A stretch of DNA of 64,000 nt. It comes from Alphaproteobacteria bacterium. Its GTDB lineage: Bacteria; Pseudomonadota; Alphaproteobacteria; MPNO01. A program made the translations under genes and the position numbers. The notes beneath the pieces are model-generated. The model worked only from the letters and a program-made list of their open reading frames with translations. It was not told where the DNA came from and did no database searches. The stretch covers positions 2,751,530 through 2,815,529 of the forward strand of contig OZ251446.1 of the NCBI GenBank assembly GCA_965242495.1. Direction: 5' to 3'. Each line of letters opens with the position of its first letter. Within the stretch, counting starts at the first letter, position 1. Shown here one piece after another: positions 12,538 to 38,874 of the stretch.

Positions 12538-12564
12538 TTGACCCCCCCCCCCCCCGCGTATGGT
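12538..12564 (+). promoter_or_regulatory. Sigma70-like promoter with C14 tract in the spacer
   Basis: TTGACC (12538) - poly-C (12542-12555) - GCG - TATGGT (12559); 15-bp spacer. Confidence 0.65.
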
Positions 12565-12637
12565 AGCCGTGAGCCGACTTCGGACGGGGCATCGCATTTC
12601 GGATTGAAATGCGATGCCCCTGGGAAAGGAAAACGTG

Positions 12638-14122
12638 ATGAACACGAGAAGCACTGCGCGATTCACCGGCTTGGCCTTGACCATGGCCGCCGCCCTGGCG
12701 ACGTCCGGGTGCGGCGGCGGCAGCTCCAAACCCCCGATGCCAATGGAGCCAACGCAATTGCCTTTCCGCTCGATCGACTCTGCGGTGACAAGCAACGACC
12801 AACGACAGGGCATCCGGGCCGCGGCCGTGGAGGCGGCCGGAAACGCGCCCAACGGGGGGGTCTTCAGGAGCGTCACGCAATCCTCGACCGCCGGCGACAG
12901 TGTTCGGGTGGCGCGCTTGGTGCGCCGCGCGGACGGGGCGATAAACTGGGGGGTGGGGAAGGCCGGCGGATGGTCGGTCGACGGGGACAATGCCCGGGTG
13001 CTGGCGGAACCGCGCGGAGAGGGCTGGAGGGGCATCCAGTTCCATCAGGCGCCGGGCGGCGGCAAAGGCAGCGGAACGGGTCCGGGACTGTACGTCAACG
13101 TCTACACCGACATCGAGGTGCCGACGACCAGACCGGCGCTGGTACCCGCGGCGCTGGCGCCGGCGGACCATCCCGAGGGATGTGGAGTCGGCGGCACCGT
13201 GTCGGCCGGTCATTCCTGCACGTACGAAGCCAACGGCCAGACGTTCACTCTGCGAATGGACGGCAACAGCGTTTGCTTCGCGTTCGGATGCGCTGGGGGG
13301 AACCAACGTATCATCGACAGCACTTTCAATGGTGTGCGGGTCACTCTCGTGACCGAGGGAAGCGGCGCGAGTCGGACAATCGCCCAGCTCGGTGGTGATC
13401 TCGCCGCGCCCGCCGCGGCGGGGCCGCCGCCCGCCGACGCGCCGGCGCCGCAGCCGCCCGACGACATGCCGGCGCCGCCCGACGCCAGGGAGCCGGCGCC
13501 GCCGATGCCCGTCTTTGACCCCGACCTTGCTGGGCAGGACGCCGACTATCTGGCCGGCGGCATCTGGGTGCGGGTCCCGGAGGGCGCCGCCAGCGTGGCC
13601 GACTACGAGTTCGGCGCCTTCATGGACGGCGGCGACCCCTTCGTGCAGGACAATCTGGCGGGCCTGACGGGCAGGGCGACGTACACGGGCGAAGCGAGCG
13701 CGGTGTACTCCTATCAGCCGACGAACCGGAACTACTTCGTCGACGGCGTGGTGAGACTGACGGCCGACTTCGGCGACGCCGACAGCCTGGGAAGCATCCG
13801 CGGAGCCATCACCGACATCACGGGAGAAGGGCCGGAGCGGGGCTGGTACGAGGGAGGCAGCGTGGTGCTGGGGACCGCGCAAATCGGAAGCGCCGACAGC
13901 GGCTTCTTCACCGGCGACACCTCCACCCGGAGTAGCGACCCCGACGACCCCGTGCTTACCGGCAAGTGGGGCGGCCGGTTCTACGGCAACGGGGCCGCGG
14001 GCGCCCATCCCGGCTCCGTCGCCGGCACGTTCGGCGGAGCGACCGCCGACGGCAGCCAATCCTACGTCGGCATATACGGCGCATTCCGGGGGGAGGATCA
14101 GGAGCCGCCGCAGCCGCGGTAA
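12638..14122 (+). CDS. TbpB-like surface lipoprotein 1 (probable Slam substrate)
   Basis: Lipobox LATSG-C-GGGSS; C-terminal GRATYTGEA...LTADFG...GKWGGRFYGNG...GSVAGTFG...GIYGA barrel motifs; AAGGA SD. Confidence 0.8.
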   Translation: MNTRSTARFTGLALTMAAALATSGCGGGSSKPPMPMEPTQLPFRSIDSAVTSNDQRQGIRAAAVEAAGNAPNGGVFRSVTQSSTAGDSVRVARLVRRADGAINWGVGKAGGWSVDGDNARVLAEPRGEGWRGIQFHQAPGGGKGSGTGPGLYVNVYTDIEVPTTRPALVPAALAPADHPEGCGVGGTVSAGHSCTYEANGQTFTLRMDGNSVCFAFGCAGGNQRIIDSTFNGVRVTLVTEGSGASRTIAQLGGDLAAPAAAGPPPADAPAPQPPDDMPAPPDAREPAPPMPVFDPDLAGQDADYLAGGIWVRVPEGAASVADYEFGAFMDGGDPFVQDNLAGLTGRATYTGEASAVYSYQPTNRNYFVDGVVRLTADFGDADSLGSIRGAITDITGEGPERGWYEGGSVVLGTAQIGSADSGFFTGDTSTRSSDPDDPVLTGKWGGRFYGNGAAGAHPGSVAGTFGGATADGSQSYVGIYGAFRGEDQEPPQPR

Positions 14123-14146
14123 CGCGCGGCCCGACCGCGCCGGCCC

Positions 14147-14373
14147 GTCCTGGTTCAGATACATGCGAGACACGGCCCATCGGGTCGGTCGGTATCCGGC
14201 CTCGCCATGGCCGGAAGCCTGCTTACGGTCATGGTTGCCCTCGGCCGTTGGGAGCGGTGGGTCACCCGAAGGGCCGGAGCGGAGCGGAGGAGCCGCGAAG
14301 CGGCTTGACGCGCCGCTCCCAACGGCCCACGCGGTGTCTCATATGTGGTGTCTCATATGTATTGAACGAGGAC
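14147..14373. mobile_element. Non-autonomous element with IS481-like terminal inverted repeats
   Basis: Left GTCCTGGTTCAGATACATGCGAGACAC and right GTGTCTCATATGTATTGAACGAGGAC are inverted repeats resembling the ends of the IS at 55562-56702; GGCCC on both flanks; internal 15-bp IR. Confidence 0.6.
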
Positions 14374-14379
14374 GGCCCC

Positions 14380-14407
14380 TTGACCCCCCCCTCCCCGTGT
14401 GCATGGT
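14380..14407 (+). promoter_or_regulatory. Paralogous promoter with interrupted C8TC4 spacer tract
   Basis: TTGACC-CCCCCCTCCCCGTGTG-CATGGT, then AGCCATGAGCCGACTTCGGA nearly as after the 12538 promoter; 16-bp spacer. Confidence 0.6.
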
Positions 14408-14538
14408 AGCCATGAGCCGACTTCGGAACGGGAGCGCCAACCACCGTACGAGCGATGCCGCGAAACGCTCACGTCCCGAAAATCATGAACATGGCGTCCG
14501 GAGGCGGACTCTCAAACGCAGGCATGAGGAGAAACGCG

Positions 14539-17043
14539 ATGAACGCGAGAAGCGCTGCGCGATTCACCGGCTTGGCCTTGACCATGGCCGCCGCCCTGGC
14601 GATGTCCGGATGCGGCGGCGGCAGTTCCACACCATCCACGCCAGCCATATCATCCATACTCACGCCGGTACCATCGCGCGTCAGTTCGCCAACGCGGTTC
14701 TACACATTCGACTCTGCATTGACGAACGCTGCCCAACGACACCACGTCCGAGCCGCGGTTGCGGCGGCGGCCGGAAACACGCCCAACTCGGGGAGCGTCA
14801 CGCAATCCTCGACCGGCGACGGCGCCGCCACCGACAGCGTTTCGGTGACCGTGGAGCGTGATGCGAGCGGAACGGTAAGTTATACGGTACGGGAGGCTGG
14901 CGGATGGTCCGTCGACAGGGACAGTGCCCGGGTGTTGGCGGAATCGAGTAAAGGGATCTGGAAGGGCATCGAGTACCATCAGGCGCCAGGAGGCGGCCAA
15001 GGCAGTGGAACGGGTCCGGGATTGTATGTCGCGGGATTGTATGTCGACGTCTACACCGATATCGAGGCGCCAGGAACCGCGTCGGACGCCGACTCCGACT
15101 ATCTGGCCGGCGGCATCTGGATGCGGGTCCCGGAGGACGCCGCCAGCGTGGCCGACTACGAGTTCGGCGCCTTCGCGGACGGCAACGACCCCTTCACGCA
15201 GGCCAATCTGGCGGGCCTGACGGGCACGGCGACGTACGCGGGCGACGCGACCGCGGTGTACTCCCATCAGGCAACGAACCGGAACTACTTCGTCGACGGC
15301 GACGTGAGCCTGACGGCCGACTTCGGCGACGCCAGCAGCTTGGGAAGCATCAGCGGAACCGTCTCCAACTTCACGGGAGAAGGGCCGGAGTCGGACTGGT
15401 ACGAGGGAGTCAGCGTGTCGCTGGGGGACGCGCAAATCGGAAACGCCGACAGCGGCTTCTTCACCGGCGACACCTCCACCCGGAGTAGCGACCCCACCGA
15501 CCCCGGGCTTACCGGCAAGTGGGGCGGCCAGTTCTACGGTAACGGCGCCGCGGGCGGCCGTCCCGGTTCCGTCGCCGGTACGTTCGGCGCCGCGACCGCC
15601 GACGGCAGCGAATCTTTCGTCGGCGCATACGGCGCATCCAGCCTGGCAGGCCCCGCGCTGGGCTACAGGCCGGTGCCGGCAGGCCCCGCGCTGGGCTCCA
15701 GGCCGGTGCCGCCGCCGGCAGAGCGGGCGCCGGCAGAGCCGGCGCCGGCAGCGTCCGCGCTGCCAGAGCCCGCGCGGCCACAATCGCGCGACCGGTCGTC
15801 AACGTTGTTCTACACATTCGACTCTGCGTTGAGGAACGCCGTCCAACGATGGGGCGTCCGAGCCGCGGTTGCGGAGGCAGCCGGAAACACGCCCAACCCG
15901 TACACCCTTGAAGCCGATGTCTCCGGGGGCGTCACGCAATCTTCGACCGGCGACAACCAAATTCTTTCGAGTGTGTGGCGGGACGAGGACGGAACGTTAC
16001 TCCTGGCGGCCTCGGGGTGGTACGGCATAGACCACCGGATCGTCGGCAGGGACAGTGCCCGGGTGTTGGCGGAATCGAGTAAAGGGATCTGGAAGGGCAT
16101 CGAGTACCATCAGGCGCCAGGAGGCGGCCAAGGCAGTGGAACGGGTCCGGGATTGTATGCCTACGTCTACACCGACTACGAGGAGCCTACGTCCTCGTGC
16201 GGATTGGTGGGCGGCATCTTGTCGAGAGGTGCTCTCTGCACGTACGAACTCGACGGCCAGACGTTCACTCTGAGCTCGACTGCCTTCACGATTAACGGCG
16301 TTTCTAGCGAAGCAATTTGCTTCGACGACATTTGCGGGGATAACGTCAACCTAGAGGGCTGGACTGTGGGTACGGGTGAAGGTGTGAAGGTCACCATAGT
16401 GACCGAGGGAAGCAGCGGTGGGGATCGGAGAATCGCCCGGATCTCGCAGAACCTTGCGGACGCCGCTGAGCGGGAGCCATCCGACGCCGACTATCTGGCC
16501 GGCGGCATCTGGATGCGGGTCCCGGAGGACGCCGCCAGCGTGGCCGACTACGAGTTCAGCGCCTTCGCGGACGGCCTCGACCCCTTCACGCAGGCCAATC
16601 TGGAGGGCCTGACGGGCACGGCGACGTACGCGGGCGACGCGACCGCGGTGTACTCCCATCAGGCAACGAACAGGAACTACTTCGTCGACGGCGACGTGAG
16701 CCTGACGGCCGACTTCGGCGACGCCAGCAGCTTGGGAAGCATCAGCGGAACCGTCTCCAACTTCACGGGAGAAGGGCCGGAGTCGGACTGGTACGAGGGA
16801 GTCAGCGTGTCGCTGGGGGCCGCGTCAATCGGAATCGCCAACAGCGGCTTCTTCACCGGCGACACCTCCACCCGGAGTAGCGACCCCACCGACCCCGGGC
16901 TTACCGGCAAGTGGGGCGGCCGGTTCTACGGTAACGGCGCCGCGGGCGACCATCCCGGTTCCGTCGCCGGTACGTTCGGCGCCGCGACCGCCGACGGCGG
17001 CGAATCCTTCGTCGGCGTATACGGCGCACGGCGGCAGCAGTAA
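14539..17043 (+). CDS. TbpB-like surface lipoprotein 2 with two tandem modules
   Basis: Lipobox LAMSG-C-GGGSS; two copies of DYLAGGIWMRVPED...GKWGGxFYGNG...AGTFGA; Pro/Ala linker. Confidence 0.8.
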   Translation: MNARSAARFTGLALTMAAALAMSGCGGGSSTPSTPAISSILTPVPSRVSSPTRFYTFDSALTNAAQRHHVRAAVAAAAGNTPNSGSVTQSSTGDGAATDSVSVTVERDASGTVSYTVREAGGWSVDRDSARVLAESSKGIWKGIEYHQAPGGGQGSGTGPGLYVAGLYVDVYTDIEAPGTASDADSDYLAGGIWMRVPEDAASVADYEFGAFADGNDPFTQANLAGLTGTATYAGDATAVYSHQATNRNYFVDGDVSLTADFGDASSLGSISGTVSNFTGEGPESDWYEGVSVSLGDAQIGNADSGFFTGDTSTRSSDPTDPGLTGKWGGQFYGNGAAGGRPGSVAGTFGAATADGSESFVGAYGASSLAGPALGYRPVPAGPALGSRPVPPPAERAPAEPAPAASALPEPARPQSRDRSSTLFYTFDSALRNAVQRWGVRAAVAEAAGNTPNPYTLEADVSGGVTQSSTGDNQILSSVWRDEDGTLLLAASGWYGIDHRIVGRDSARVLAESSKGIWKGIEYHQAPGGGQGSGTGPGLYAYVYTDYEEPTSSCGLVGGILSRGALCTYELDGQTFTLSSTAFTINGVSSEAICFDDICGDNVNLEGWTVGTGEGVKVTIVTEGSSGGDRRIARISQNLADAAEREPSDADYLAGGIWMRVPEDAASVADYEFSAFADGLDPFTQANLEGLTGTATYAGDATAVYSHQATNRNYFVDGDVSLTADFGDASSLGSISGTVSNFTGEGPESDWYEGVSVSLGAASIGIANSGFFTGDTSTRSSDPTDPGLTGKWGGRFYGNGAAGDHPGSVAGTFGAATADGGESFVGVYGARRQQ

Positions 17044-17120
17044 CGCGCGGCCCGACCGCGCCGGTCTGGAAACGGGGGAGGGGCGGCCGCGCGGCCGCCC
17101 CTCTATTTTCCGCGCCGACG

Positions 17121-18473
17121 ATGAAATGGGTCTGCATCCTCGCGGTCGCGGTTTTGCTTCCCGCTTCGGCCTCGTCCGCTTCCGCTTCGGAGCGCTCCCA
17201 TCTGTCCTCCGACCCCCGGGTCAACGACGCCCGGTCGCTGATCGAAGACGGCCGGTTCTCCGAAGCGCTGGCGGTCCTGCGTCCGCTGGCCCCGGACCAC
17301 GCGGACCGCACCGACGTCCTGTTCCTCGTCGGCCTCGCCGCCATCGGCGCCTCGCAGCAGGCCGGCGCCGGAGAAGGGGAGCAGACCGCCCTGCTCGACG
17401 AGGCCGTCGCCGCGCTGCGCGCCATCCTCGTCGACCGGCCCGGCCTGACGCGCGTGCGCCTGGAGCTGGCCCTCGCCTTCTTTCTCAAGAACGAGGACGA
17501 TCTCTCGCGCGAACACTTCGAGCGCGTGCTGGCCGGCGGGCCGCCGCCGGCGATGGCGGCGAACGTCCGCCGCTTCCTGGAGGCGATCCGGGCGCGGCGG
17601 CGCTGGAGCGGCTATTTCGGCGCGGTCTTCGCTCCCGACAGCAACCTCAACGCGGCCTCGAAGTCGGACGTCATCCACATCCGCGGCGCGCCGTTCCGCC
17701 GCGACGCGGACGCGGGCGCCCGCTCGGGGGTGGGGGTCGTCCTGTGGAGCGGCGGCGAGTATCAGCATCCGCTCCACCGGAGGCTGCGGCTGCGGGCGGG
17801 CGTGGACCTCGCCCGCCGGGAATACGCCGGAAGGGACTTCGACCAGACCTTCCTGTCCGGGCACGTCGGACCCCGCTGGCTGATCGACCGGGACACCGAG
17901 GCGAGCCTGCTCGCCAGCGTCCAGCGCCGCTGGACCGCCGGCAAGCCGGAGAGCGACGGCCTCGGCGCCCGCCTCGAGGGCGAGCGCCGCCTCTCCCGGC
18001 GCCTGACGGCGAACCTGCGCGCCGCCTGGCGCCGGCGCGAGTACCGGAGGAGCGGATCCCTGGACGGGCCGCAGGCCACCCTCTCCCTCGGGGCCGCCTG
18101 GCTCCTGACCTCGACCGCGCAAATCGACGCGACGATCGGCCATGCGCGCGAACGCCCCGAAGCGGCGTTCCGGCGCAACGCCACCCGCTGGGCGCGGATG
18201 GGCCTGTCGGTGGCGTTGCCGGTCGTCACCGTGCGCGGCAGCGCCGAATTGCGCCGGACCCGCTTCGAGGGCGATTGGTCCCCGTTCACCCCCGCGGGCG
18301 CATCGCGGGCCGACCGGACCCGGATCCTGCGCGTGTCGATCTTCAACCGGGCCTTCACCGTGCGCGGATTCAGCCCGCAACTCGTGCTGACGAACGAAGC
18401 GCGCGAATCCAACGCGCAGTTGCACGACTACAGGCGCAACCGCGCCGAACTGCGGCTCGTGCGGCAGTTCTGA
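17121..18473 (+). CDS. Slam (surface lipoprotein assembly modulator, DUF560; type XI secretion outer-membrane protein)
   Basis: Signal peptide, TPR-like helices with RVRLELALAFF, PDSNLN barrel start, C-terminal Phe; directly downstream of TbpB-like genes. Confidence 0.82.
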   Translation: MKWVCILAVAVLLPASASSASASERSHLSSDPRVNDARSLIEDGRFSEALAVLRPLAPDHADRTDVLFLVGLAAIGASQQAGAGEGEQTALLDEAVAALRAILVDRPGLTRVRLELALAFFLKNEDDLSREHFERVLAGGPPPAMAANVRRFLEAIRARRRWSGYFGAVFAPDSNLNAASKSDVIHIRGAPFRRDADAGARSGVGVVLWSGGEYQHPLHRRLRLRAGVDLARREYAGRDFDQTFLSGHVGPRWLIDRDTEASLLASVQRRWTAGKPESDGLGARLEGERRLSRRLTANLRAAWRRREYRRSGSLDGPQATLSLGAAWLLTSTAQIDATIGHARERPEAAFRRNATRWARMGLSVALPVVTVRGSAELRRTRFEGDWSPFTPAGASRADRTRILRVSIFNRAFTVRGFSPQLVLTNEARESNAQLHDYRRNRAELRLVRQF

Positions 18474-18505
18474 CCCGCATTGCTCATACTGCTCGTCCGC
18501 CGACG

Positions 18506-31100: not shown

Positions 31101-32516
31101 ACCGGCCGGATCACGGGCGTCGACGGGGTTGCGGTCCGCAACGCCGCCGGCGAGCTGAGCGTAACGGTGGCGGCCGGCGGCAGGATCGACGGGGACGTCG
31201 TCGATTCGGGCAGCCGTCCCGCGATGGTCTCGACCGGGGCCGGGAGCGCGGTCCAGGGGATCGACGTGGCCGGAGCGGGCAGCGAGCTGCGGATCGGCGG
31301 TACCGCGGAGCGGGCGCGCCTCCGCCGGGGCGGGACGGTGACGGTGGGGCCGGACGGCTCGGTCGGCCCGGTATCGAGCGACCGCGGGGAGTTGGAGGCG
31401 GTGGCCAGACAGGGCGCGGGGGAGACGCAGGCGGAGGCGCTGCAACGGGCCTTTCGGGGCGAGGTGGACGAAGCCGGGGGCGCGCCGACCATACAGACGC
31501 AGAAGGAGGGCGAGCCCCCGCGGACGGTGGGGCCGCCCGGTACCGGGGCCGCGGCGCCCGACGGCGCCTTCGACGTGGGCGTCGAGACCACCGGAGGGGG
31601 CGGCGTGCGGATCGTGCCGAGGTACGCGCCGCGTTCGCGCGTGTACGAGGCGCTGCCGTCGGCGCTGCTGGGGTTGAACGATCTGCCGACGCATCGCGAT
31701 CGTCTGTCGGCGCTGCGTTCGTCGAACGGGATCTGGGCGCGCGTGGAGGCGGAGGGCGGCGAGCGCCGGGCGAAGCGTTCGACGTCCGCGGCCGCCCTCT
31801 CCTACGACCATCGCCGTTACGGCGTGCGGACCGGCGTGGACGTTCCGTTGGGGTCGTCCGGCATGGCGGGCGTCTCGGCGCATCGCCTGCGCGGGTCCGC
31901 GGAACTGTCGGGGAAGGACGGCGAGATCGAGGCGTCCGGTACGGGCTTCGGCGTGTCGGGCGCATGGCGGTTCCCGGACGGCGTCTACGTCGACGGGCAG
32001 GCGCAGGCGACGTGGTACGAGGCGGACGTGAAGTCGGGGCCGCGCGGGGTGCTGAAGTCCGGGGCCAGGGGCTTCGGCTACGCGCTTGGGCTGGAGGCGG
32101 GCCGCCGGCTGGCCCTGGGCGTGGTGACGCTGACGCCGCGCGCGCGTCTGGCGCGTTCGCAGCTGCGGCTGAACGACTTCACCGACGCCCTGGGCGGTCG
32201 GGTGTCGCTGGAGAAGGGGCGCAGCGTGACCGGTCGCGCGGGGCTGCGCGTCGAGGCCGCGCCGTCGGGCCCCGGCGGCGGTCGGCTGTTCGCTTCGGCG
32301 GAGGTGGAGCGGGAGTTTGTGGCCGAGACGCGGATGCGCGTGTCGGGCGAAGGGCTGTCCTCGGAGCGCGACGCGACCCGGGCGCGTCTGGCCCTGGGCG
32401 GTTCGCATGAATGGGGCGAGGGCCGCTACGCCGTGCAAGGCGCGGCAAGCTACGCCGCCGGCCGCCGCGGCAACCGCAGCTACGGCGGCGCGCTGAACCT
32501 GAAGCTGCGGTTCTGA
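28173..32516 (+). CDS. Large autotransporter 1
   Basis: Signal-like AAAQ; Gly/Val/Thr beta-helix repeats; YAPRSRVYEALP linker; barrel ending YGGALNLKLRF. Confidence 0.88.
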   Translation: MLSSTTSPRNLRDGAPVRDGRASRRSGPAGSVSAALALGCAAALVLGAGGAAAQNLCAGDVVADRTSIVVCDRAAGETRDVHINLRNPDIALTGFNESPVTADTYGVGSVTIEVTGGSLSSSGNWAKGIRSWSNGGSGDVAVTVKDVDITTANDNGNAVYVRRQAGTGDIKIDVSGGVLTTTGGGVSQGITGWAQVAGDIDIDAKDVVMRTEGANSLGIFGYQQGPTGDVDVAVQGGSIETNGFLAHGVYSGKIGGTGNAGLSVSGASVTTRGRFTRAVNGVSSGEGDVTVDVSGEAVVVAEGEGSVGVYLLHVGNGSGHATIGAAARTAAPFGNGVYGRLMPSANAAGRIVIDARGRIEARNAGVLAWAEPRSGSTFGEGNEAADETAGTAPMIHVASSDDVTVGEGVMDAYVRAAVAGDDGTLQAGEQAVLDAIEGDDSDALDTALGALPDDYDDAWKARMRAFRVGRGAERTDHHGSQGNAPGANARLAEEAAVEILDIPRAGIRAMALSHTEIADYVRRGGFGGSLSDDERTVLAAVLTGRGLEAALAALPADYTDSWKDGVRLRAMSYNAGDIQVDVAGGTITADGDGVHARYVVAHDRNGAIAVTVAEGASVAGGRHGVFVGGAGLDDDGLRAHTVTVNGAVMGGTGAGVYLDGCGTVTIGENGRVSAASGVGILSDGAGDFYATVAGAVEGDVRRTGGGDMSATVSGAVEGDLLVQGGGDLSATVLGMVKGDLRAMDGGALTVDVMEGGVVTGTVHDPVGPLTVRGGVGRLLYGNGATVTVARTGRLTGVEGEALRSAAGDLDVTVAGTVAGDLRAPTGGALTLDVQEGGAVAGTVHDPVGPLTVRGSVGRLLYGNGATVTVAATGRLTGVEVEGRREALRSEAGDLTLTVAGMVAGDVVGEGDGDLRATISGMIAGDVFGRGAGEHVVTVAAGGAVTGVIHLAASAVRVDGAAGRVQFDRGGAVTVGGTGRITGVDGVAVRNAAGELSVTVAAGGRIDGDVVDSGSRPAMVSTGAGSAVQGIDVAGAGSELRIGGTAERARLRRGGTVTVGPDGSVGPVSSDRGELEAVARQGAGETQAEALQRAFRGEVDEAGGAPTIQTQKEGEPPRTVGPPGTGAAAPDGAFDVGVETTGGGGVRIVPRYAPRSRVYEALPSALLGLNDLPTHRDRLSALRSSNGIWARVEAEGGERRAKRSTSAAALSYDHRRYGVRTGVDVPLGSSGMAGVSAHRLRGSAELSGKDGEIEASGTGFGVSGAWRFPDGVYVDGQAQATWYEADVKSGPRGVLKSGARGFGYALGLEAGRRLALGVVTLTPRARLARSQLRLNDFTDALGGRVSLEKGRSVTGRAGLRVEAAPSGPGGGRLFASAEVEREFVAETRMRVSGEGLSSERDATRARLALGGSHEWGEGRYAVQGAASYAAGRRGNRSYGGALNLKLRF

Positions 32517-33029: not shown

Positions 33030-33057
33030 TTGACAGACGGAATTTCTGTTCCATCTT
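33030..33057 (+). promoter_or_regulatory. Putative sigma70 promoter of the NYN leader
   Basis: TTGACA-N16-CATCTT. Confidence 0.5.
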
Positions 33058-33097
33058 CCCCCCAAGGCAGATACCCGCTGGCAGCGTGCTGTCGGCT

Positions 33098-33132
33098 CAA
33101 GGGCCGCTCCCCGGAGCGGCCCTTGCTTTTTT
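33098..33132 (+). terminator. Intrinsic terminator just upstream of the NYN start codon
   Basis: CAAGGGCCGCTCC-CC-GGAGCGGCCCTTG then CTTTTTT; SD GAGGA and ATG follow within 12 nt. Confidence 0.75.
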
Positions 33133-33143
33133 CGAGGACGACC

Positions 33144-33914
33144 ATGAGAACGAGAGTCTATGTCGACGGCTTCAACCTGTACTACGGAGCGCTCAAGGGA
33201 ACGCCCTTCAAGTGGCTGAATCCTGTCGATCTGGCGCGCCGGGCGCTGCCGGCGGGATACGTCGTGGATAAGCTGCTTTACTTCACCGCCCATGTATCCG
33301 GCGTTTCGGACCCGGGCGCGCCGGCCCGCCAGCATGCCTACCTCACCGCGCTCCGCACGCTGCCGGAGGTGGAAGTGCATTTCGGGAGCTTTCTCGCCAA
33401 GACGGTCTGGCGTCCGCTCGTCAACCTGCCGGTGGCTGGCCGGCGGATCGACGCGCCGCGGCCGGTGACGTTGCCCGCGGGCGATCACCCGGTCGTCGGG
33501 TCGCGGATGCAGACGCTGCCCGTGGGCCGCTACCCCGAACGCGGCGCGGGAAGGAAGAAGCGACGCAAGGCGTCGGCCCCGCTGCCGGACGCATTGGTCG
33601 CGGAGTTTCACGCCATGGAGGAGAAAGGCTCCGACGTGAATCTTGCGGCCCATCTCCTGAACGACGCCTGGAGCGATTTGTTCGAGGCGGCGGCCGTCAT
33701 CTCGAACGATACCGATCTTGTGACTCCGATCCGCATGGTGACCGCCGAGCGGAGGAAGCAGGTCATCATCGTGTGTCCAGGGCGATGGCAGGTCGCGCCG
33801 AAGCTGCGCGCCGCGGCGAGCCATGCGCGCCATATTCGCCCCGCGATGCTGAGAGGGGCGCAGTTTCCCGACACGCTGCCGGGCGCTGCGGTCTCGAAGC
33901 CGACGGGCTGGTAA
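33144..33914 (+). CDS. NYN (LabA/DUF88, PIN-like) domain ribonuclease
   Basis: VYVDGFNLYYG, EEKGSDVNLA, VISNDTDL acidic motifs. Confidence 0.88.
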   Translation: MRTRVYVDGFNLYYGALKGTPFKWLNPVDLARRALPAGYVVDKLLYFTAHVSGVSDPGAPARQHAYLTALRTLPEVEVHFGSFLAKTVWRPLVNLPVAGRRIDAPRPVTLPAGDHPVVGSRMQTLPVGRYPERGAGRKKRRKASAPLPDALVAEFHAMEEKGSDVNLAAHLLNDAWSDLFEAAAVISNDTDLVTPIRMVTAERRKQVIIVCPGRWQVAPKLRAAASHARHIRPAMLRGAQFPDTLPGAAVSKPTGW

Positions 33915-34043
33915 GTGCGCGCGCCAAACCATTGAGCCTGCGACGGCGGCAAGGAAAGCGGGAATCCATGGCGGGGAAGGGCGGGTCCTCGGGCGTATCC
34001 GCCGACCGACGGCCTCCCCCGGTCCCTCGTCCCCACCGAAAAC

Positions 34044-34071
34044 TTGACGGGGGGGGGGGGGGGGTTATGCT
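34044..34071 (+). promoter_or_regulatory. Autotransporter 2 promoter with G16 spacer tract
   Basis: TTGAC-G16-T-TATGCT; 16-bp spacer. Confidence 0.65.
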
Positions 34072-34111
34072 GGAGTCGGCCGTTCCGCTCACGGGGTTTC
34101 GGAGAGACGCG

Positions 34112-37100
34112 ATGAACGCAACCGCCGCGCCGACGAAGACGAAGCCGGCGCGAACGCCGGCCGCCGCGCTCGCCCTGGGGGCGGCCCTCGTCCTCGGCGC
34201 CGCCGGAGAGGCGGCGGCCCAAGGGGTATGCGCCGGCGCTTTGCCCACCGCGCCCAACTCGAACGTGGGCGGCGTCCGAATCGTCTGCCAGGAAAGCAAC
34301 CCGAGCGCGAGCGGCATCCGGATCAACGCGGAGAGCGTCACCCTCTCCGTGACGTCGTCGAACTTCGCCTTCCGGCCCGCCATCGACGCCCGCCTCAACA
34401 GCGCCAGTGACGAGAACGACGTCAACGTCCGCCTGGGCCGGGGGCTCGTCATCAGCACGGGGGCCGCCAGGGAAGCTTTCATAGGCGCCTACGCCCGGAA
34501 CGCGGGCAGCGGCGCCACCACGGTCGTCATGGAGGACGGCGCCTCCATCACGACGACGGGCGGTGACGCCGACGGCATCCGTTATTCGAACCCGAGTACC
34601 GCGACGGGAACCACCGACGTCCGGATGACGGGCGGATCGATCACGACGTCGGGCACTGAGGCCCACGGGATCTATATCCTGCACAACGGGTCGGGCGCCT
34701 CCACCGTCAGCATGAGCGGCGGCGCCATCAAGGCGTCGGGCAGCCTCAGCAGCGGCATCTACGTCAACAAGCAGAGAGGCTCGGGCGACGCCACGATAAC
34801 CTTCTCGGGCGGCTCCATCGAGAAGTCGGGGGGGGACGGGGCCGGGATCGGCTTCTATGGCAACCCGGCTGCGAACGCGGCCAACGCCCGCATCCGCGTG
34901 ACGGGCGGCTCCATCGCGGTGGAGGGGGTGGCCAACGCCCACGGCGTGTACGTCGATCATCGGGGCGCGGGCGGAGGGGACGTCGCCATGACGGGCGGCT
35001 CCATCACGGCGTCGGGCGACAGCTTCTCCCACGGCGTGTTCGCCTTCCTGCGCAACGCGGCGAACGAAGCGCCGATCGTCATCGGCATGGCGGGCGGCTC
35101 GATCGCGACGAAGGGTCGCGCCTCCCTGGGTCTCTACGGGGCTCACCGGGGACTGGGTTCCGTCACGGTGACGATGGAAGGGGAAGCGGAGATCGCGACG
35201 TCGGGCGACAGTTCCGAAGGCATGTTCGCCCTTCTGGACAACGCCGCGAACGAAGCGGCGATCGTCATCGGCATGGCGGGCGGTTCGGTCGCGACGGAGG
35301 GTCGCCGCTCCTCGGGTCTCTACGGGGCTCACCATGGACTGGGCTCCGTCACGGTGACGACGGGAGGGGAAGCGGAGATCGAGACGCCGTTCGCCGTCGG
35401 CGTGGAGGGCCGGCTGGTCAACGCCGCGAACGCGGCCGGGCGCCTCGTCGTCACGCATGGCGGCGCGGTCGAGGCGGGGGACGTGGGCGTTCTCGCCTGG
35501 GCCGCGCGCCGGAGCGGCCATACCTCCGGCGACGGCGCGGAGGAGGCGGACGACGCGGCCAGGACCGAGCCCATGATCCACGTCACCTCGAGCGGCGACG
35601 TCACGGTCGGCGCGCAGGTGACGGACGCCTTCATCAGGAACAGGATCGCGGGCGACGACGGGACGCTCTCGGCGCGCGAGCGGGCCGTTCTCGACGCCAT
35701 CACCGCGGACGATTCGGACGCGCTGACGACGGCGCTGGAGGCTCTGCCCGCGGACTACGACGACGACTGGAAGGCGGAGGCCGAGAACCTTCGGCGAAAG
35801 CGCGCCGAGGGGACGGACGATTCGGTGCTGGCGGCCCGGGCGACGGAAGAGATCCTGGGCCTGACCAGGGCGGGGGTGCGGGCGCTGGCGCTCTCGCATG
35901 AAACGATTACCGGCCACGTGCGCTTCGGCGACGGCGACAGGGCGTTCTCGGACGCCGAGCGGACGGCGCTGGAGGCGGCGCTGACCGGCCGCGGCCTGGA
36001 GACGGCCCTGGCCGCGCTCCCCGCCGCCTACACCGATGCATGGAAGGACACGCTCCGGGCGCACGCGGCGAGCTACAACGCAGGCGATATCCAGGTGGAC
36101 GTGACCGGCGGGACCATCGCCGCCGAGGGCGACGGCGTGGACGCGCGCTACGCGCTGGCGCACGACCGGAACGGCGCCATCGCGGTGACCGTGGCCGATG
36201 GGGCGGAGATCACCGGCGGACGCCACGGCGTCCACGTCGGCGGGGCGGGCCTCGCCGCGGGCGGCGGGCTCCGCGACCAGACGGTGACGGTGAACGGCGC
36301 GGTCATGGGCGGGACCGGCGCGGGCGTCCACCTGGCCGGCGGCGGGCGGGTGACGGTCGGCAGGACCGGGCGCGTCGGCGCAACCTCGGGCGACGCCGTC
36401 CTCTCCGACGGCGCGGGCGGCCTCGTCGCGACGGTGGCCGGCGCGGTGGAGGGGCATGTCCGCGCCGAGGGCGGCGGGGACCTGACGGTGACGGTGGAGC
36501 GGGAAGGCGAGATCGCCGGCGACGTCCGCGCCGAGGGCGGCGGCGATTTGAGCGCGACGGTGTTGGGCATGGTGAAGGGCGACCTCCGCGCGATGGACGG
36601 CGGCGCCCTGACGGTGGACGTGCGGGAAGGTAGCGAGGTGACGGGAACGGTCCACGATCCCGTCGGCCCGCTGACGGTGCGCGGCTTCGTCGGGCGGCTT
36701 CTCTACGGCGACGGCGCGACGGTCACGGTGGCCAGGACGGGCCGGCTCACCGGCGTCGAGGGCGAGGCGCTCCGCAGCGCGGCCGGGGACCTGACCCTGA
36801 CCGTGGCCGGGATGGTCGCCGGCGACGTCCGCGGCCTTGGCGATGGCGATCTGGCGGCCGTGGTGTCCGGCAGGATCGATGGCGACCTTGTCGAGGAAGG
36901 CGCCGGCGACTTGCGCGCGACGATCTCGGGCGCGGTCGCGGGCGACGTTTTCGGCCGCGGCGCGGGCGAACACGTGGTCGCGGTGGCTGCGGGCGGGACG
37001 GTGACGGGCGTCATCCATCTGTCCGCCAGCACGGTGACGGTGAACGGCGAGGCGGGGCAGGTGCGGTTCGACGACGGCGGCGCGGTCACGGTGGGCGCGA

Positions 37101-38557
37101 CGGGCCGGATCTTGGGGATCGAGGATGTCGGCATCCGCGTCGGCGTCCGCAGCGAGACGGGCGATCTGTCGGCGACGATAGCGGGCGCGGTGACGGGCGA
37201 CGTTCTCGCCCTGGGGAGCGGAGAGCATCGGGCGTCGGTTCTGGAAGGCGGCCGGGTTTCGGGTAGGGTCCGCCTCGCCGCCGCGGGCGGCGTGGTGACG
37301 GTCGGCGGCGTCGCCGGGCAGGTGCTGCTGGACGGCGGCGGGTCGGTGACGGTGGGCGAAGCGGGCGAGATCGTCGGCGTCGCGGAGGACCCCGACGACC
37401 CCGACGCGATCCGCAGCGAGCGGGGCGAACTCGAGGTGACGGTCTGCCGGGGCGCGGGCGAAACGTTGCGCGGCGCCGCGGGCCGGCTCGGCGGTCGTCG
37501 GATCGTCGAGAAAGGCGGCGTCCCGCGCGTGCTGTACCGGGCCGGGTGCGGCGGTCCCGCGGTGGAGATCGGCGCGCTGGGCGCGCCGGAGGCGGCGCCG
37601 GACGGCGCCTTCGACGTGGGGTTGGCGGCGGACGAGGACGGCGGCGTGCGGCTGCGGCCGGAATACGCGCCGCGTTCGCGCGTGTACGAGGCGCTGCCGT
37701 CGGCGCTGCTGGGGTTGAACGATCTGCCGACGCATCGCGACCGGCTGTCGGCGCTGCGTTCGTCGAACGGGATCTGGGCGCGCGTGGAGGCGGAGGGCGG
37801 CGAGCGCCGGGCGAAGCGTTCGACGTCCGCGGCCGCCCTCTCCTACGACCATCGCCGTTACGGCGTGCGGACCGGCGTGGACGTTCCGTTGGGCGCGTCC
37901 GGCATGGCGGGCGTCTCGGCGCATCGCCTGCGCGGGTCCGCGGAACTGTCGGGGAAGGACGGCGAGATCGAGGCGTCGGGCGCGGGTTTCGGCGTGTCGG
38001 GCGCATGGCGGTTCCCGGACGGCGTCTACGTCGACGGGCAGGCGCAGGCGACGTGGTACGAGGCGGACGTGAAGTCGGGGCTGCGCGGGATGCTGAAGTC
38101 CGGGGCCAGGGGCTTCGGCTACGCGCTTGGGCTGGAGGCGGGCCGCCGGCTGGCCCTGGGCGTGGTGACGCTGACGCCGCGCGCGCGTCTGGCGCGTTCG
38201 CAGCTGCGGCTGAACGACTTCACCGACGCCCTGGGCGGTCGGGTGTCGCTGGAGAAGGGGCGCAGCGTGACCGGTCGCGCGGGGCTGCGCGTCGAGGCCG
38301 CGCCGTCGGGCCCCGGCGGCGGTCGGCTGTTCGCTTCGGCGGAGGTGGAGCGGGAGTTTGTGGCCGAGACGCGGATGCGCGTGTCGGGCGAAGGGCTGTC
38401 CTCGGAGCGCGACGCGACCCGGGCGCGTCTGGCCCTGGGCGGTTCGCATGAATGGGGCGAGGGCCGCTACGCCGTGCAAGGCGCGGCAAGCTACGCCGCC
38501 GGCCGCCGCGGCAACCGCAGCTACGGCGGCGCGCTGAACCTGAAGCTGCGCTTCTGA
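34112..38557 (+). CDS. Large autotransporter 2
   Basis: MNATAAPTK...AAAQGVCAG signal; GGSI-type beta-helix repeats; barrel almost identical to autotransporter 1. Confidence 0.88.
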   Translation: MNATAAPTKTKPARTPAAALALGAALVLGAAGEAAAQGVCAGALPTAPNSNVGGVRIVCQESNPSASGIRINAESVTLSVTSSNFAFRPAIDARLNSASDENDVNVRLGRGLVISTGAAREAFIGAYARNAGSGATTVVMEDGASITTTGGDADGIRYSNPSTATGTTDVRMTGGSITTSGTEAHGIYILHNGSGASTVSMSGGAIKASGSLSSGIYVNKQRGSGDATITFSGGSIEKSGGDGAGIGFYGNPAANAANARIRVTGGSIAVEGVANAHGVYVDHRGAGGGDVAMTGGSITASGDSFSHGVFAFLRNAANEAPIVIGMAGGSIATKGRASLGLYGAHRGLGSVTVTMEGEAEIATSGDSSEGMFALLDNAANEAAIVIGMAGGSVATEGRRSSGLYGAHHGLGSVTVTTGGEAEIETPFAVGVEGRLVNAANAAGRLVVTHGGAVEAGDVGVLAWAARRSGHTSGDGAEEADDAARTEPMIHVTSSGDVTVGAQVTDAFIRNRIAGDDGTLSARERAVLDAITADDSDALTTALEALPADYDDDWKAEAENLRRKRAEGTDDSVLAARATEEILGLTRAGVRALALSHETITGHVRFGDGDRAFSDAERTALEAALTGRGLETALAALPAAYTDAWKDTLRAHAASYNAGDIQVDVTGGTIAAEGDGVDARYALAHDRNGAIAVTVADGAEITGGRHGVHVGGAGLAAGGGLRDQTVTVNGAVMGGTGAGVHLAGGGRVTVGRTGRVGATSGDAVLSDGAGGLVATVAGAVEGHVRAEGGGDLTVTVEREGEIAGDVRAEGGGDLSATVLGMVKGDLRAMDGGALTVDVREGSEVTGTVHDPVGPLTVRGFVGRLLYGDGATVTVARTGRLTGVEGEALRSAAGDLTLTVAGMVAGDVRGLGDGDLAAVVSGRIDGDLVEEGAGDLRATISGAVAGDVFGRGAGEHVVAVAAGGTVTGVIHLSASTVTVNGEAGQVRFDDGGAVTVGATGRILGIEDVGIRVGVRSETGDLSATIAGAVTGDVLALGSGEHRASVLEGGRVSGRVRLAAAGGVVTVGGVAGQVLLDGGGSVTVGEAGEIVGVAEDPDDPDAIRSERGELEVTVCRGAGETLRGAAGRLGGRRIVEKGGVPRVLYRAGCGGPAVEIGALGAPEAAPDGAFDVGLAADEDGGVRLRPEYAPRSRVYEALPSALLGLNDLPTHRDRLSALRSSNGIWARVEAEGGERRAKRSTSAAALSYDHRRYGVRTGVDVPLGASGMAGVSAHRLRGSAELSGKDGEIEASGAGFGVSGAWRFPDGVYVDGQAQATWYEADVKSGLRGMLKSGARGFGYALGLEAGRRLALGVVTLTPRARLARSQLRLNDFTDALGGRVSLEKGRSVTGRAGLRVEAAPSGPGGGRLFASAEVEREFVAETRMRVSGEGLSSERDATRARLALGGSHEWGEGRYAVQGAASYAAGRRGNRSYGGALNLKLRF

Positions 38558-38621
38558 CGCGGTCCCGCTTTCCCGGAGCCTGCCCCCGGCCCGTCCTCCC
38601 CCCTTCGTCATTCCCGCGAAA

Positions 38622-38772
38622 GAGTGTGTGAAGAAATCCCAATACATCCGCGTAATTCGGGATTTTCGCCATGTCGATAGGAACACAAATGATCTATATA
38701 AGGAACGTATGTGGGTCAAATGTAGTGAATCGACTGGATAGACCACAGGTCTTGGGGTTTCTTCACACACTC
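38622..38772. mobile_element. 151-bp MITE, copy 2
   Basis: Same length, near-identical TIRs and GAAA duplication (38618-38621, 38773-38776) inside GTCATTCCCGC...GCGGGAATCCA. Confidence 0.85.
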
Positions 38773-38854
38773 GAAAGCGGGAATCCATGGCGGGAGAGGG
38801 CGGGTCCCCGGGCGTATCCGTCGGCCGACGGCCTCCCTCGTCTCCACGGAAAAC

Positions 38855-38874
38855 TTGACGGGGGGGGGTATGCT
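38855..38874 (+). promoter_or_regulatory. Paralogous promoter with collapsed G9 tract
   Basis: TTGAC-G9-TATGCT; only 8-bp spacer. Confidence 0.55.

What the first reader, a model, noticed from the sequence alone, without database searches (positions are those of the whole stretch)
12538..38874. Four surface-protein promoters have homopolymer tracts in the -35/-10 spacer: candidate phase-variation programme
Seen: TTGAC-C14-GCG-TATGGT (12538, spacer 15) before lipoprotein 1; TTGAC-C8TC4-GTGTG-CATGGT (14380, spacer 16) before lipoprotein 2; TTGAC-G16-T-TATGCT (34044, spacer 16) before autotransporter 2; TTGAC-G9-TATGCT (38855, spacer 8) before the AT3 stub. Two unrelated gene families use the same design with opposite bases. 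Established: poly-G/C promoter tracts tune Neisseria porA, fetA and opc by slipped-strand mispairing. Inference: this alphaproteobacterium varies its surface proteins the same way; the interrupted tract may be a locked state and G9 an off state.
Basis: partly seen in the sequence, partly recalled or inferred. Interest (0 to 1): 0.8.

Follow-up and report, generated by a model that had tools for sequence, protein, structure and literature searches.

The report
Homopolymer switches in surface-gene promoters
Long runs of C or G fill the gap between the two recognition boxes of the promoters of two surface lipoprotein genes and an autotransporter gene in an uncultured alphaproteobacterium, and they belong to a genome-wide set of such slippage-prone runs at surface and secreted-product genes, the same kind of stochastic on/off dial known from Neisseria and Bordetella, although actual switching has not yet been measured.

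Summary
All four sites are in the sequence as described, apart from a one-base miscount at the two C tracts. They are not isolated. The genome has 111 G/C runs of 9-33 nt. Runs of at least 12 number 56, against about 2 expected from a first-order Markov model. Sixty-nine runs lie in a REP/MITE-like repeat. The other 42 are mostly intergenic and sit at surface, envelope and secreted-peptide genes. These include 10 of 14 autotransporters and a YadA-like adhesin.

The two lipoproteins lie next to a Slam gene. In two other MAGs the same genes carry tracts at the same places with conserved flanks but different lengths. Three orthologous autotransporter promoters keep a 17-nt spacer with G16, G14 and G12.

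Best reading: slipped-strand contingency promoters, a new member of a known kind. No read-level length heterogeneity or transcription start could be obtained. The scan noted similar tracts earlier in other uncultured alphaproteobacteria.

The parts
12538..12564 (+). LP1 promoter: TTGACC, C run 12542-12555 (C14), GCG, TATGGT; spacer 15
   Evidence: Read. Found by the regex scan. Not called by the generic scan because its spacer range is 16-18.
12586..12620 (+). 15-bp perfect hairpin in the LP1 5' leader
   Evidence: MFE -36.1 kcal/mol for the leader, z -4.5, 0 of 200 shuffles as stable. Single copy in the genome.
12638..14122 (+). LP1, a 494-aa lipoprotein (signal peptide ending ...LATSGC)
   Evidence: Translation. 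NF041636 slam_lipo 3.9e-5, 24 bits, below the cut-off of 80. No Pfam family.
14333..14366 (+). Duplicated 'GTCTCATATGT..GAAC' box just upstream of the LP2 -35
   Evidence: The same box precedes a TTG -35 in 30 of its 39 genomic copies.
14380..14407 (+). LP2 promoter: TTGACC, C8 (14384-14391), T (14392), C4, GTGTG, CATGGT; spacer 16
   Evidence: Orthologue in G041: TTGA-C11-GTGTGCATGGT.
14539..17043 (+). LP2, an 834-aa lipoprotein with two copies of the LP1 C-terminal module
   Evidence: tblastn: LP1 residues 301-482 are 80% identical to LP2 185-366 and 53% identical to LP2 405-832. slam_lipo 1.1e-6, two stretches.
17121..18473 (+). Slam (surface lipoprotein assembly modifier) gene
   Evidence: PF04575 SlipAM 1.4e-23, 84 bits against a cut-off of 22, plus N-terminal TPR.
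28173..32516 (+). AT1, an autotransporter paralogue without a tract. It starts 22 nt after the nucleoside-transporter stop codon.
   Evidence: PF03797 6.2e-31. Upstream sequence read.
33954..34031 (+). Copy of the dispersed repeat 'GAAAGCGGGAATCCATGGCGGGG...' abutting the AT2 promoter
   Evidence: Query positions 5-82 match about 20 other places in G000 at 77-90% identity.
34044..34071 (+). AT2 promoter: TTGACG, G16 (34049-34064), T, TATGCT; spacer 16
   Evidence: Only promoter-like site in 33700-39200, against 0.1 expected. Also.
34112..38557 (+). AT2, a 1481-aa type Va autotransporter. It holds a further G8 at 34828-34835 inside the coding sequence.
   Evidence: PF03797 1.4e-30, TIGR01414 3.1e-36. 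The G8 is listed.
38855..38874 (+). Remnant promoter: TTGACG, G9 (38860-38868), TATGCT; spacer 8
   Evidence: In the alignment to the AT2 upstream region the promoter differs by the tract length and the T that follows it in AT2; an 8-nt indel lies upstream of the -35.
38915..39127 (+). AT3 stub: 70 codons of signal peptide and N-terminus, then a stop. It is followed by an unrelated transglutaminase-like gene (39164-39928).
   Evidence: Translation. PF01841 7.5e-13 for the next gene.

Best explanation
The four tracts are slipped-strand contingency elements built into sigma-70-type promoters.

Each run of C or G forms most of the spacer between a CTTGAC-type -35 box and a TATGNT or CATGGT -10 box. 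Gain or loss of one base during replication changes the spacing and the angular register of the two boxes. This dials transcription of the gene behind it up or down, heritably but reversibly.

Predicted states in this assembly:
- LP2 and AT2, spacer 16: near optimal.
- LP1, spacer 15: weakened.
- The AT3 remnant, spacer 8: dead, heading a truncated gene.
- The T inside the LP2 tract splits it into C8 and C4, which should slow switching.

The four sites are part of a genome-wide repertoire with three tract placements:
(a) in the -35/-10 spacer;
(b) immediately 5' of the start codon, or possibly within a 5' coding extension;
(c) inside the coding sequence.
The repertoire is concentrated on autotransporters, a trimeric adhesin, Slam-type lipoproteins, envelope glycosyltransferases, a restriction enzyme and NHLP-type peptide precursors.

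Shown here: the anatomy, the excess and placement of tracts, the gene classes, and length differences between orthologues.
Inferred: the promoter identity, the slippage itself, and its effect on expression.
For: 1. Anatomy. The only promoter-like site the generic scan finds in 33700-39200 is the AT2 site.

2. Excess. There are 111 G/C runs of at least 9 nt. Runs of at least 12: 56 observed against 1.9 expected from a first-order Markov model. Runs of at least 14: 32 against 0.15.

3. Placement. 39 of 46 non-REP runs are intergenic, although about 87% of the genome is coding by my crude gene caller (p about 1e-27). After a wider REP filter, 42 non-REP runs remain.

4. Gene class.
- 10 of 14 type Va autotransporter genes have a run of at least 9 within 150 nt upstream of the start. 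Nine were found by script and the one on contig C2 by reading.
- The background is 30 of 3170 called genes.
- The other genes are a YadA-like adhesin, Wzy_C, GtrII, GT2-GtrA, PMT_2, an S8 lipoprotein protease, HlyD, LpoB, four NHLP-like precursors and a BPTD_3080 restriction endonuclease.

5. Conserved design with variable length.
- LP promoters: C14 and C8TC4 here; C12 and C11 in G041.
- Autotransporter C1:1475324: TTGCAA-C-G16-TATATT here, TTGCGC-GGC-G14-TATACT in G041, TTGCAA-AGA-G12-AG-TAAAAT in G040. All three spacers are 17.
- AT2 homologue in G040: TTGCAT-AC-G15-TAATGT, spacer 17.
- 5'-proximal class with an identical 26-nt left flank: C22 and C15 here, C10 in G041, C16 and C12 in G040.

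6. Tracts at the same places in three separate assemblies argue against artefact.

7. One contig of run X2 has 1 nt left out at 14392, the interrupting T. This gives a pure C12 allele at depth 69.5 of 583.

8. Established precedent: a poly-C tract between -10 and -35 of fetA alters expression, and porA behaves likewise (passages of PMC5320596). The Bordetella fim 'C-stretch' promoters are a further case (passages of PMC1891110).
Against: - No within-population length heterogeneity could be measured. All runs offered were assembled contigs, which break at the G runs.
- No transcription start is known, so the hexamers are predictions. LP1 and LP2 are not called by the generic scan, and their -10 boxes are weak.
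- MutS and MutL are intact, so slippage is not boosted by loss of mismatch repair.
- Six of the 12 promoter-type sites compared across the three genomes have exactly 17 nt, reached with compensating non-tract bases. This could also mean selection for a fixed spacing rather than for switching.
- 69 of 111 long runs lie in a REP/MITE-like repeat. The genome therefore makes long G/C runs for reasons unrelated to gene control, and the AT2 and AT3 promoters abut such a repeat.
- Four of 14 autotransporters have no long tract.
- Apparent frameshifts at intragenic tracts could be homopolymer errors of the assembly.
Confidence: 0.7

Rival explanations
1. Static spacer DNA. The G/C runs are rigid, fixed-length filler, or a sequence-specific element, that sets promoter strength or binds a factor. 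They are kept at one length in each lineage and do not function as a switch.
For: Three orthologous or homologous autotransporter promoters hold the spacer at exactly 17 nt with G16, G14 and G12 plus compensating bases. LP1 and its G041 counterpart both have a spacer of 15, with C14+GCG and C12+GTGTG. MutS and MutL are present.
Against: Tract length differs in every orthologue comparison made, 7 of 7 loci. The 5'-proximal class varies from C10 to C22 between identical flanks. Spacers of 14, 15 and 16 also occur. Runs of 12-16 G/C are intrinsically slippage-prone in every system where this has been measured (established knowledge).
Confidence: 0.12
2. Neutral by-product. A genome-wide mutational or mobile-element process, the REP/MITE-like repeats with an internal G run, seeds long G/C runs in intergenic DNA. 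Those near genes are tolerated rather than selected, so there is no 'programme'.
For: 69 of 111 runs of at least 9 nt lie in REP/MITE-like copies, all intergenic, with lengths of 9-26. The AT2 and AT3 promoters directly follow a repeat copy. Long G14 runs are patchy across the order: 27 of 78 genomes have at least one.
Against: Non-REP tracts are concentrated on one functional class: 10 of 14 autotransporters against 30 of 3170 genes overall. They sit at exact functional positions, either filling a 14-17 nt spacer between good hexamers or between the start codon and the signal peptide. They are kept at orthologous positions in three genomes. The LP promoters are not next to the G-run repeat.
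Confidence: 0.1
3. Assembly or sequencing artefact. The homopolymers, or their lengths, are errors of long-read or two-colour chemistry.
For: Homopolymer length is the commonest long-read error. Two paralogous membrane genes are split at G14 and G12, one base away from the joining length G13. Some fragmented relatives have G runs at contig ends.
Against: The tracts lie inside a 3.9-Mb contig on both strands. They recur at the same positions in paralogues and in two other assemblies with conserved flanks. Contigs of independent runs reach into the G13 run of the repeat copy at 32642 (loose ends at 32648-32652), and one X2 record ends just before the AT2 run at 34047. Errors change a length by a base or two; they do not create runs of 14-33.
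Confidence: 0.03
4. Structure-forming regulatory DNA or RNA. The runs act as G-quadruplex or i-motif elements, or as sites of transcriptional slippage, rather than through spacer length.
For: Runs of at least 15 G can in principle fold into an intramolecular quadruplex (general knowledge). Tracts of the 5'-proximal class lie in or near transcribed sequence.
Against: Both C and G orientations are used in the same promoter position. Tracts as short as 9-12 occur in the same design. Precise filling of a 17-nt spacer points to spacing as the controlled variable. Nothing here tests structure.
Confidence: 0.05

Closest known systems
Neisseria porA (poly-G), fetA (poly-C) and opc (poly-C) promoter tracts
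   Same: A G/C homopolymer lies between -35 and -10 of an outer-membrane protein gene, and its length sets spacing and expression. Tract length differs between strains, for example fetA C10-C14 (passages and Table 1 of PMC5320596; opc only from a reference title in PMC5084427).
   Different: Here the host is an uncultured, 70% GC alphaproteobacterium seen in runs labelled sponge metagenome. The tracts are longer, filling up to 16 of 17 spacer bases. The targets are Slam-type lipoproteins and type Va autotransporters. No expression or switching data exist.
Bordetella pertussis and B. bronchiseptica fim2/fim3/fimX 'C-stretch' promoters and homopolymer-bearing tcfA and bapC
   Same: A high-GC proteobacterium with long C tracts (up to C19) in promoters of surface-structure genes. 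Length influences transcription. Further tracts lie in autotransporter-family genes (abstract and passages of PMC1891110).
   Different: In Bordetella the tract lies between an activator (BvgA) site and the -10 box. Here it lies between canonical -35 and -10 hexamers. The repertoire here is larger: 42 non-REP runs of at least 9 nt.
Campylobacter/Helicobacter poly-G/C 'phasome'
   Same: Dozens of intergenic and intragenic G/C tracts concentrated on surface-structure and glycosyltransferase genes (abstract of PMC8355987 in the listing).
   Different: Those genera lack MutS and MutL (recalled). This genome has both. Tracts here reach 33 nt, and many lie in a dispersed repeat.
Neisseria Slam-dependent surface lipoproteins (TbpB, LbpB, fHbp, HpuA), with hpuA phase-variable through an intragenic poly-G
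   Same: Lipoprotein genes lie beside a Slam gene. One of the known substrates is under homopolymer control (abstract of PMC3786947 in the listing).
   Different: Control here is at the promoter spacer. LP1 and LP2 reach only sub-threshold slam_lipo scores, and their ligands are unknown.
Earlier notes of this scan on other uncultured alphaproteobacteria (e1-1146919, e1-4460640, e1-2950264)
   Same: G/C runs in promoter spacers and near gene starts, read as slippage switches, with length differences between relatives.
   Different: Those are other genomes with shorter tracts (8-12 nt). I did not check those notes.

Membership tests
SSR-mediated transcriptional phase variation (promoter-spacer type, porA/fetA/opc-like) | Homopolymer at or above the length at which slippage becomes frequent (about 8-9 nt or more for G/C) | tested here: met
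   C14, C8+C4, G16 and G9.
SSR-mediated transcriptional phase variation (promoter-spacer type, porA/fetA/opc-like) | Tract lies between the -35 and -10 elements of the promoter that drives the gene | tested here: inconclusive
   The hexamers and spacers of 15, 16 and 16 fit. AT2 is called by the generic scan; LP1 and LP2 are not. No transcription start data.
SSR-mediated transcriptional phase variation (promoter-spacer type, porA/fetA/opc-like) | Tract length is polymorphic between strains or relatives while the flanks are conserved | tested here: met
   LP: 14 and 8T4 here against 12 and 11 in G041. Autotransporter promoters: G16, G14 and G12. 5'-proximal class: C22, C15, C10, C16 and C12.
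SSR-mediated transcriptional phase variation (promoter-spacer type, porA/fetA/opc-like) | High-frequency, reversible length change within one clonal population | tested here: inconclusive
   Only contigs were available. A single minority contig in X2 lacks the T at 14392, and it may come from another strain.
SSR-mediated transcriptional phase variation (promoter-spacer type, porA/fetA/opc-like) | Expression level changes with tract length | not testable with these tools
   No RNA holder was listed. Needs reporters or paired DNA and RNA reads.
Type Va (classical) autotransporter | C-terminal 12-stranded beta-barrel translocator domain | tested here: met
   PF03797 in AT1, AT2 and L112. TIGR01414 in AT2 and L101. 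Ten further loci are supported only by tblastn to the AT2 barrel, at 41-50% identity. Pfam reported nothing for five of the large paralogues (L096, L101, L104, L106, L118) and only a sub-threshold PBP_like match for L097 at E <= 1e-4.
Type Va (classical) autotransporter | N-terminal signal peptide and a large passenger | tested here: met
   AT2 N-terminus MNATAAPTKTKPARTPAAALALGAALVLGAAGEAAAQ and a passenger of about 1180 aa, read from the translation. No signal-peptide predictor was run.
Slam-dependent surface lipoprotein | Lipoprotein signal peptide with lipobox cysteine | tested here: met
   ...AALATSGC (LP1) and ...AALAMSGC (LP2), read from the translations. No predictor was run.
Slam-dependent surface lipoprotein | Gene adjacent to a Slam (PF04575/DUF560) outer-membrane protein gene | tested here: met
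   Window 17121-18473: PF04575 at 84 bits against a cut-off of 22.
Slam-dependent surface lipoprotein | C-terminal 8-stranded barrel domain recognised by the family model | tested here: inconclusive
   NF041636 scores 24 and 29 bits, below the cut-off of 80. No structure was predicted.

The most novel reading that the evidence does not exclude
This uncultured alphaproteobacterium, whose near-identical DNA turns up in runs labelled sponge metagenome, runs a very large, three-mode 'phasome' of 40 or more loci. Hypermutable G/C tracts of 9-33 nt sit in promoter spacers, 5' leaders and coding 5' ends. They stochastically shuffle most of its autotransporters, a trimeric adhesin, Slam-displayed lipoproteins, envelope glycosyltransferases, a restriction enzyme and even NHLP-type ribosomal peptide precursors. 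New switches may be seeded by a dispersed repeat that carries an expandable G run. That would extend contingency-locus biology from mucosal pathogens to an environmental animal symbiont and to natural-product precursors.
Probability: 0.45. Interest if true: 0.75.

Novelty: new member of a known kind. Interest (0 to 1): 0.6.

Why it matters
Homopolymer-driven phase variation has been worked out almost entirely in human and animal pathogens such as Neisseria, Haemophilus, Bordetella, Campylobacter and Helicobacter.

This genome carries an unusually dense and long-tract repertoire. It belongs to an uncultured alphaproteobacterium found in animal-associated metagenomes, and the repertoire is aimed at the proteins and glycans that would face a host, phages or neighbours. 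If the tracts switch, the cell surface of such symbionts is a shifting mosaic. That bears on how they persist in a filter-feeding host, evade phages and are recognised.

It also has practical consequences:
- Consensus assemblies will report arbitrary on/off states.
- Apparent pseudogenes at G/C tracts should not be read as gene loss.

No paper in the searched library combined sponge, symbiont, phase variation and autotransporter (0 hits). None of the 15 papers listed contained 'sponge symbiont'.

Tried and rejected
- Read-level test. The run search listed 12 runs, all kept as assembled contigs, with no RNA holder listed. Laying X1, X2, X4 and X5 on 14300-34299 gave fragmentary contigs. They break in the G13 run of the repeat copy at 32642 (loose ends at 32648-32652). 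No row appeared for the AT2 G16, so allele counts were impossible. LP1 and the AT3 remnant lay outside the 20-kb limit of that single call.
- Public scans. The metagenome-contig scans with the LP leader pattern and the autotransporter leader pattern both gave 0 hits.
- Orthologue searches. The split membrane gene (L105) found no orthologue in the 5 genomes searched. The O-antigen ligase (L103) also found none.
- Taxonomy. The acetyl-CoA synthetase search gave at most 71% identity to assorted Rhodospirillales-like and unrelated MAGs, so it is not informative beyond 'alphaproteobacterium'.
- Order-wide G14 count. The tool counts overlapping positions and includes contig-end runs, so I used it only for presence or absence.
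- Rfam: no family anywhere in the window.
- Contig C2 as an alternative haplotype carrying another tract allele: rejected. Its best match to C1 is 87-88% identical, so it is a paralogue.
- Frame analysis of the 5'-proximal class. An upstream ATG is in frame with the signal peptide at C22 and C15 here, but out of frame at C29 here, C10 in G041, and C16 and C12 in G040. In 70% GC DNA, open frames are too common to decide whether that ATG is used.
- My gene caller is crude: codon log-odds, 87% coverage. It misses low-GC genes, so counts based on it are approximate.
Full report
OBSERVATION

All four sites exist at the stated coordinates.

| Site | -35 | Tract and remaining spacer | -10 | Spacer |
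|---|---|---|---|---|
| LP1 | TTGACC 12538-12543 | C run 12542-12555 (14 C including the two of the hexamer), GCG | TATGGT 12559-12564 | 15 |
| LP2 | TTGACC 14380-14385 | C8, T (14392), C4, GTGTG | CATGGT 14402-14407 | 16 |
| AT2 | TTGACG 34044-34049 | G16 34049-34064, T | TATGCT 34066-34071 | 16 |
| Remnant | TTGACG 38855-38860 | G9 | TATGCT 38869-38874 | 8 |

The spacers are right.

LP1 and LP2 share the promoter core and the first 25 nt or so of the leader. AT2 and the remnant are near-identical from a repeat copy through the promoter to about codon 60. Within the promoter they differ by the tract length and the T that follows it in AT2; an 8-nt indel lies upstream of the -35. The window therefore holds two independent designs, each present twice.

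The generic promoter scan finds AT2 as the only site in 5.5 kb, against 0.1 expected. It does not call LP1 (spacer 15 is out of its range) or LP2 (weak -10 box).

THE GENES

- AT1 and AT2 are type Va autotransporters (PF03797; TIGR01414).
- The 'AT3 stub' is 70 codons of signal peptide and N-terminus ended by a stop. A transglutaminase-like gene follows.
- LP1 (494 aa) and LP2 (834 aa, with the C-terminal module twice) have lipobox signal peptides and no Pfam family. They have sub-threshold matches to the Slam-dependent surface lipoprotein model (24 and 29 bits against a cut-off of 80).
- The next gene, 17121-18473, is a clear Slam (PF04575 1.4e-23, with TPR).

'Surface proteins' is therefore well founded for both families.

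THE GENOME-WIDE PICTURE

The window is C1:2751530-2815529 of a 3.96-Mb, 70% GC assembly.

Run lengths of G or C fall about five-fold per added base from 3 to 7 nt and then plateau. There are 111 runs of at least 9 nt, reaching G33.

| Run length | Observed | Expected (first-order Markov) |
|---|---|---|
| at least 12 | 56 | 1.9 |
| at least 14 | 32 | 0.15 |

Sixty-nine of the 111 lie in or beside a dispersed REP/MITE-like repeat (for example ...CGCTTTCGCGGGAATGACGA-Gn-...) and 42 do not. With the first, narrower filter, 39 of 46 non-REP runs were intergenic, although about 87% of the genome is coding by my crude gene caller.

The non-REP runs cluster on a recognisable gene set.

Ten of 14 autotransporter genes (loci from tblastn) have a run of at least 9 within 150 nt upstream. 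Nine were found by script and the C2 copy by reading. The background is 30 of 3170 called genes. The four autotransporters without a long tract are:
- AT1;
- one with an ordinary TTGCAA-N17-TATGGA promoter;
- one with G7;
- one whose tract has decayed to C6TC2TC2.

The other tract-associated genes are:
- a YadA-like trimeric adhesin, with C31 between its start codon and signal peptide, in frame;
- an S8 lipoprotein protease (C11, in frame);
- an O-antigen ligase-like gene (G16, 50 nt upstream);
- GtrII, GT2-GtrA and PMT_2 glycosyltransferases;
- two paralogous membrane glycosyltransferase-like genes split at G14 and G12, where G13 would join both;
- HlyD (G24);
- an LpoB-like lipoprotein;
- a BPTD_3080 restriction endonuclease (C12, 22 nt upstream);
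- four NHLP-type small precursors.

Some tracts sit by housekeeping-type genes (UbiD, a ROK regulator, an ABC ATPase), so the association is strong but not exclusive.

THREE PLACEMENTS

(a) In the spacer. These are the four window sites plus TTGCAA-C-G16-TATATT before autotransporter C1:1475324 and TTGCAA-ACCC-G13-TATGAT before an NHLP gene. A weaker case is TTGACA-C9-N8-TATATC before a low-GC island gene.

(b) Eighteen to 30 nt upstream of the signal-peptide start of six large autotransporters (C29, C23, C22, C15, C13, C9). Whether an upstream ATG reads through these as polyproline cannot be decided.

(c) Inside coding sequence.

One tract (G15) lies just upstream of a TTGACG -35 box.

COMPARATIVE EVIDENCE

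A related MAG (G041) is 92-95% identical in nucleotide sequence in three genes. A second MAG (G040) is 81-94% identical. Both carry tracts at the same places.

| Locus | This genome (G000) | G041 | G040 |
|---|---|---|---|
| LP promoters | C14, C8TC4 | C12, C11 | not compared |
| Autotransporter 1475324 promoter | TTGCAA-C-G16-TATATT | TTGCGC-GGC-G14-TATACT | TTGCAA-AGA-G12-AG-TAAAAT |
| 5'-proximal class (identical 26-nt left flank, near-identical right flank) | C22, C15 | C10, plus a disrupted copy with C4 | C16, C12 |
| AT2 | G16 in the spacer | G12 inside the 5' coding sequence, in frame | TTGCAT-AC-G15-TAATGT |
| HlyD | G24 | C16 on the opposite strand | none (also none in G004 or G067) |

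- All three spacers of the autotransporter 1475324 promoter are 17 nt. The G040 AT2 homologue also has a spacer of 17.
- In G041 the adhesin homologue carries a 13-nt tandem repeat array upstream instead of a homopolymer.
- Tract length differed in 7 of 7 loci compared.

This is the pattern expected of hypermutable tracts under selection for position, and it also rules out artefact.

It cuts both ways. Exact 17-nt spacers reached with compensating bases would also fit a fixed-length spacer.

WHAT COULD NOT BE SHOWN

The public runs that hold this DNA are kept only as contigs. Laid on 14300-34299 they fragment at the G runs. The one relevant row is a single X2 contig lacking the T at 14392, a pure C12 allele at depth 69.5 of 583. 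It may come from another strain.

No RNA run was listed and no transcription start is known. MutS and MutL are intact, as in Neisseria.

MECHANISM

I commit, at about 0.7, to slipped-strand mispairing in the tract changing the -35/-10 spacing and so transcription.
- Spacer 16 (LP2, AT2): on.
- Spacer 15 (LP1): reduced.
- Spacer 8: a decayed promoter of a dead gene.
- The T in the LP2 tract acts as a stabilising interruption.

The anatomy, enrichment and inter-genome polymorphism are shown. The promoter identity, the switching and its phenotypic effect are inferred from the established behaviour of fetA and porA (PMC5320596 passages) and of the Bordetella fim C-stretches (PMC1891110 abstract and passages).

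The rivals are a static spacer, a neutral by-product of the repeat family, an artefact, and G-quadruplex or i-motif structure. They are weighed in their own sections.

NOVELTY

The mechanism is textbook. What is new is the host and the scale: an uncultured alphaproteobacterium whose DNA is near-identical to contigs in runs labelled sponge metagenome, with very long tracts, Slam lipoproteins and NHLP precursors among the targets.

Searches found no paper combining sponge, symbiont, phase variation and autotransporter, and nothing on sponge symbionts among the papers listed. Supplements were not available.

This scan has noted comparable tracts in other uncultured alphaproteobacteria; I did not check those notes.

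Verdict: a real feature, a new member of a known kind, interest 0.6.

Noticed in passing
window 32615-32735 (example copy); 69 runs of at least 9 nt genome-wide: A dispersed REP/MITE-like element with inverted ends (CGCTTTCGCGGGAATGACG ... CGTCATTCCCGCGAAAG) and an internal G run. The run varies from 9 to 26 nt between copies. It accounts for most long G/C runs of the genome.
   Followed up: partly
window 14333-14366; G000 C1, 39 copies: A 25-nt box GTCTCATATGTAGTGAACC(C/A)GGACA occurs 39 times. In 30 of the 39 copies a TTG (-35-like) follows 3-6 nt later. A partner box (41 copies) usually lies about 170 nt away, facing outward. This looks like a MITE that sits just upstream of promoters, or carries them. 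The LP2 promoter and two other tract promoters follow such a box.
   Followed up: partly
window 12638-18473: Two paralogous lipoprotein genes followed by a Slam gene form a Slam-type surface-lipoprotein cluster in an alphaproteobacterium. LP2 carries the C-terminal module twice.
   Followed up: partly
window 12586-12620 and 12566-12585: The LP1 leader holds a perfect 15-bp hairpin (z -4.5). The small stem GAGCCGACUUCGG at the predicted 5' end of the mRNA is conserved in LP1, LP2 and both G041 leaders.
   Followed up: partly
L110 (G000 C1:2950265-2953267, minus strand): A YadA-like trimeric autotransporter has a C31 run, in frame, between its start codon and signal peptide. No alternative start lies after the tract. 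The G041 homologue instead has a tandem array of the 13-nt unit CCTCTTCACGGGG upstream (L132:1250-1430).
   Followed up: partly
L105 and L117 (G000 C1:1335002 and C1:3392309): Two paralogous membrane glycosyltransferase-like genes are each split by a G run (G14 and G12). G13 would restore both frames. This is either an 'off' state or a homopolymer error in the assembly.
   Followed up: partly
L099, L120, L121, L123 (G000 C1:558708, 3867136, 3867977, 3890672): Four NHLP-type small precursor genes score 39-49 bits on TIGR03793 against a cut-off of 50.9. One also has a CFI-box C-terminus and one a thiocillin-like core. All four have C14, C18, C19 or G13 tracts upstream of or inside their 5' ends.
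   Followed up: partly
L003, L146, L149 (G040): The tool labels G040 as another family of the same order. Its autotransporter 5' regions are nevertheless 92-94% identical in nucleotide sequence to this genome, and HlyD is 81% identical. This points to horizontal exchange of adhesin genes or to a coarse label.
   Followed up: no
window 34828-34835, 54790-54800 and 349-371: Further runs in the window: G8 inside the AT2 coding sequence; G11 in frame inside a PMT_2-type glycosyltransferase gene; and C23 beside a repeat copy near the window start.
   Followed up: no
L102 (G000 C1:1058894-1061971, minus strand): A BPTD_3080-family restriction endonuclease (1292 bits) has a C12 run 22 nt upstream of its start.
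   Followed up: no
G000 C1:3473858-3474560: A TTGACA-C9-N8-TATATC site heads a markedly low-GC stretch with an open frame that my gene caller missed. This is possibly an acquired island.
   Followed up: no
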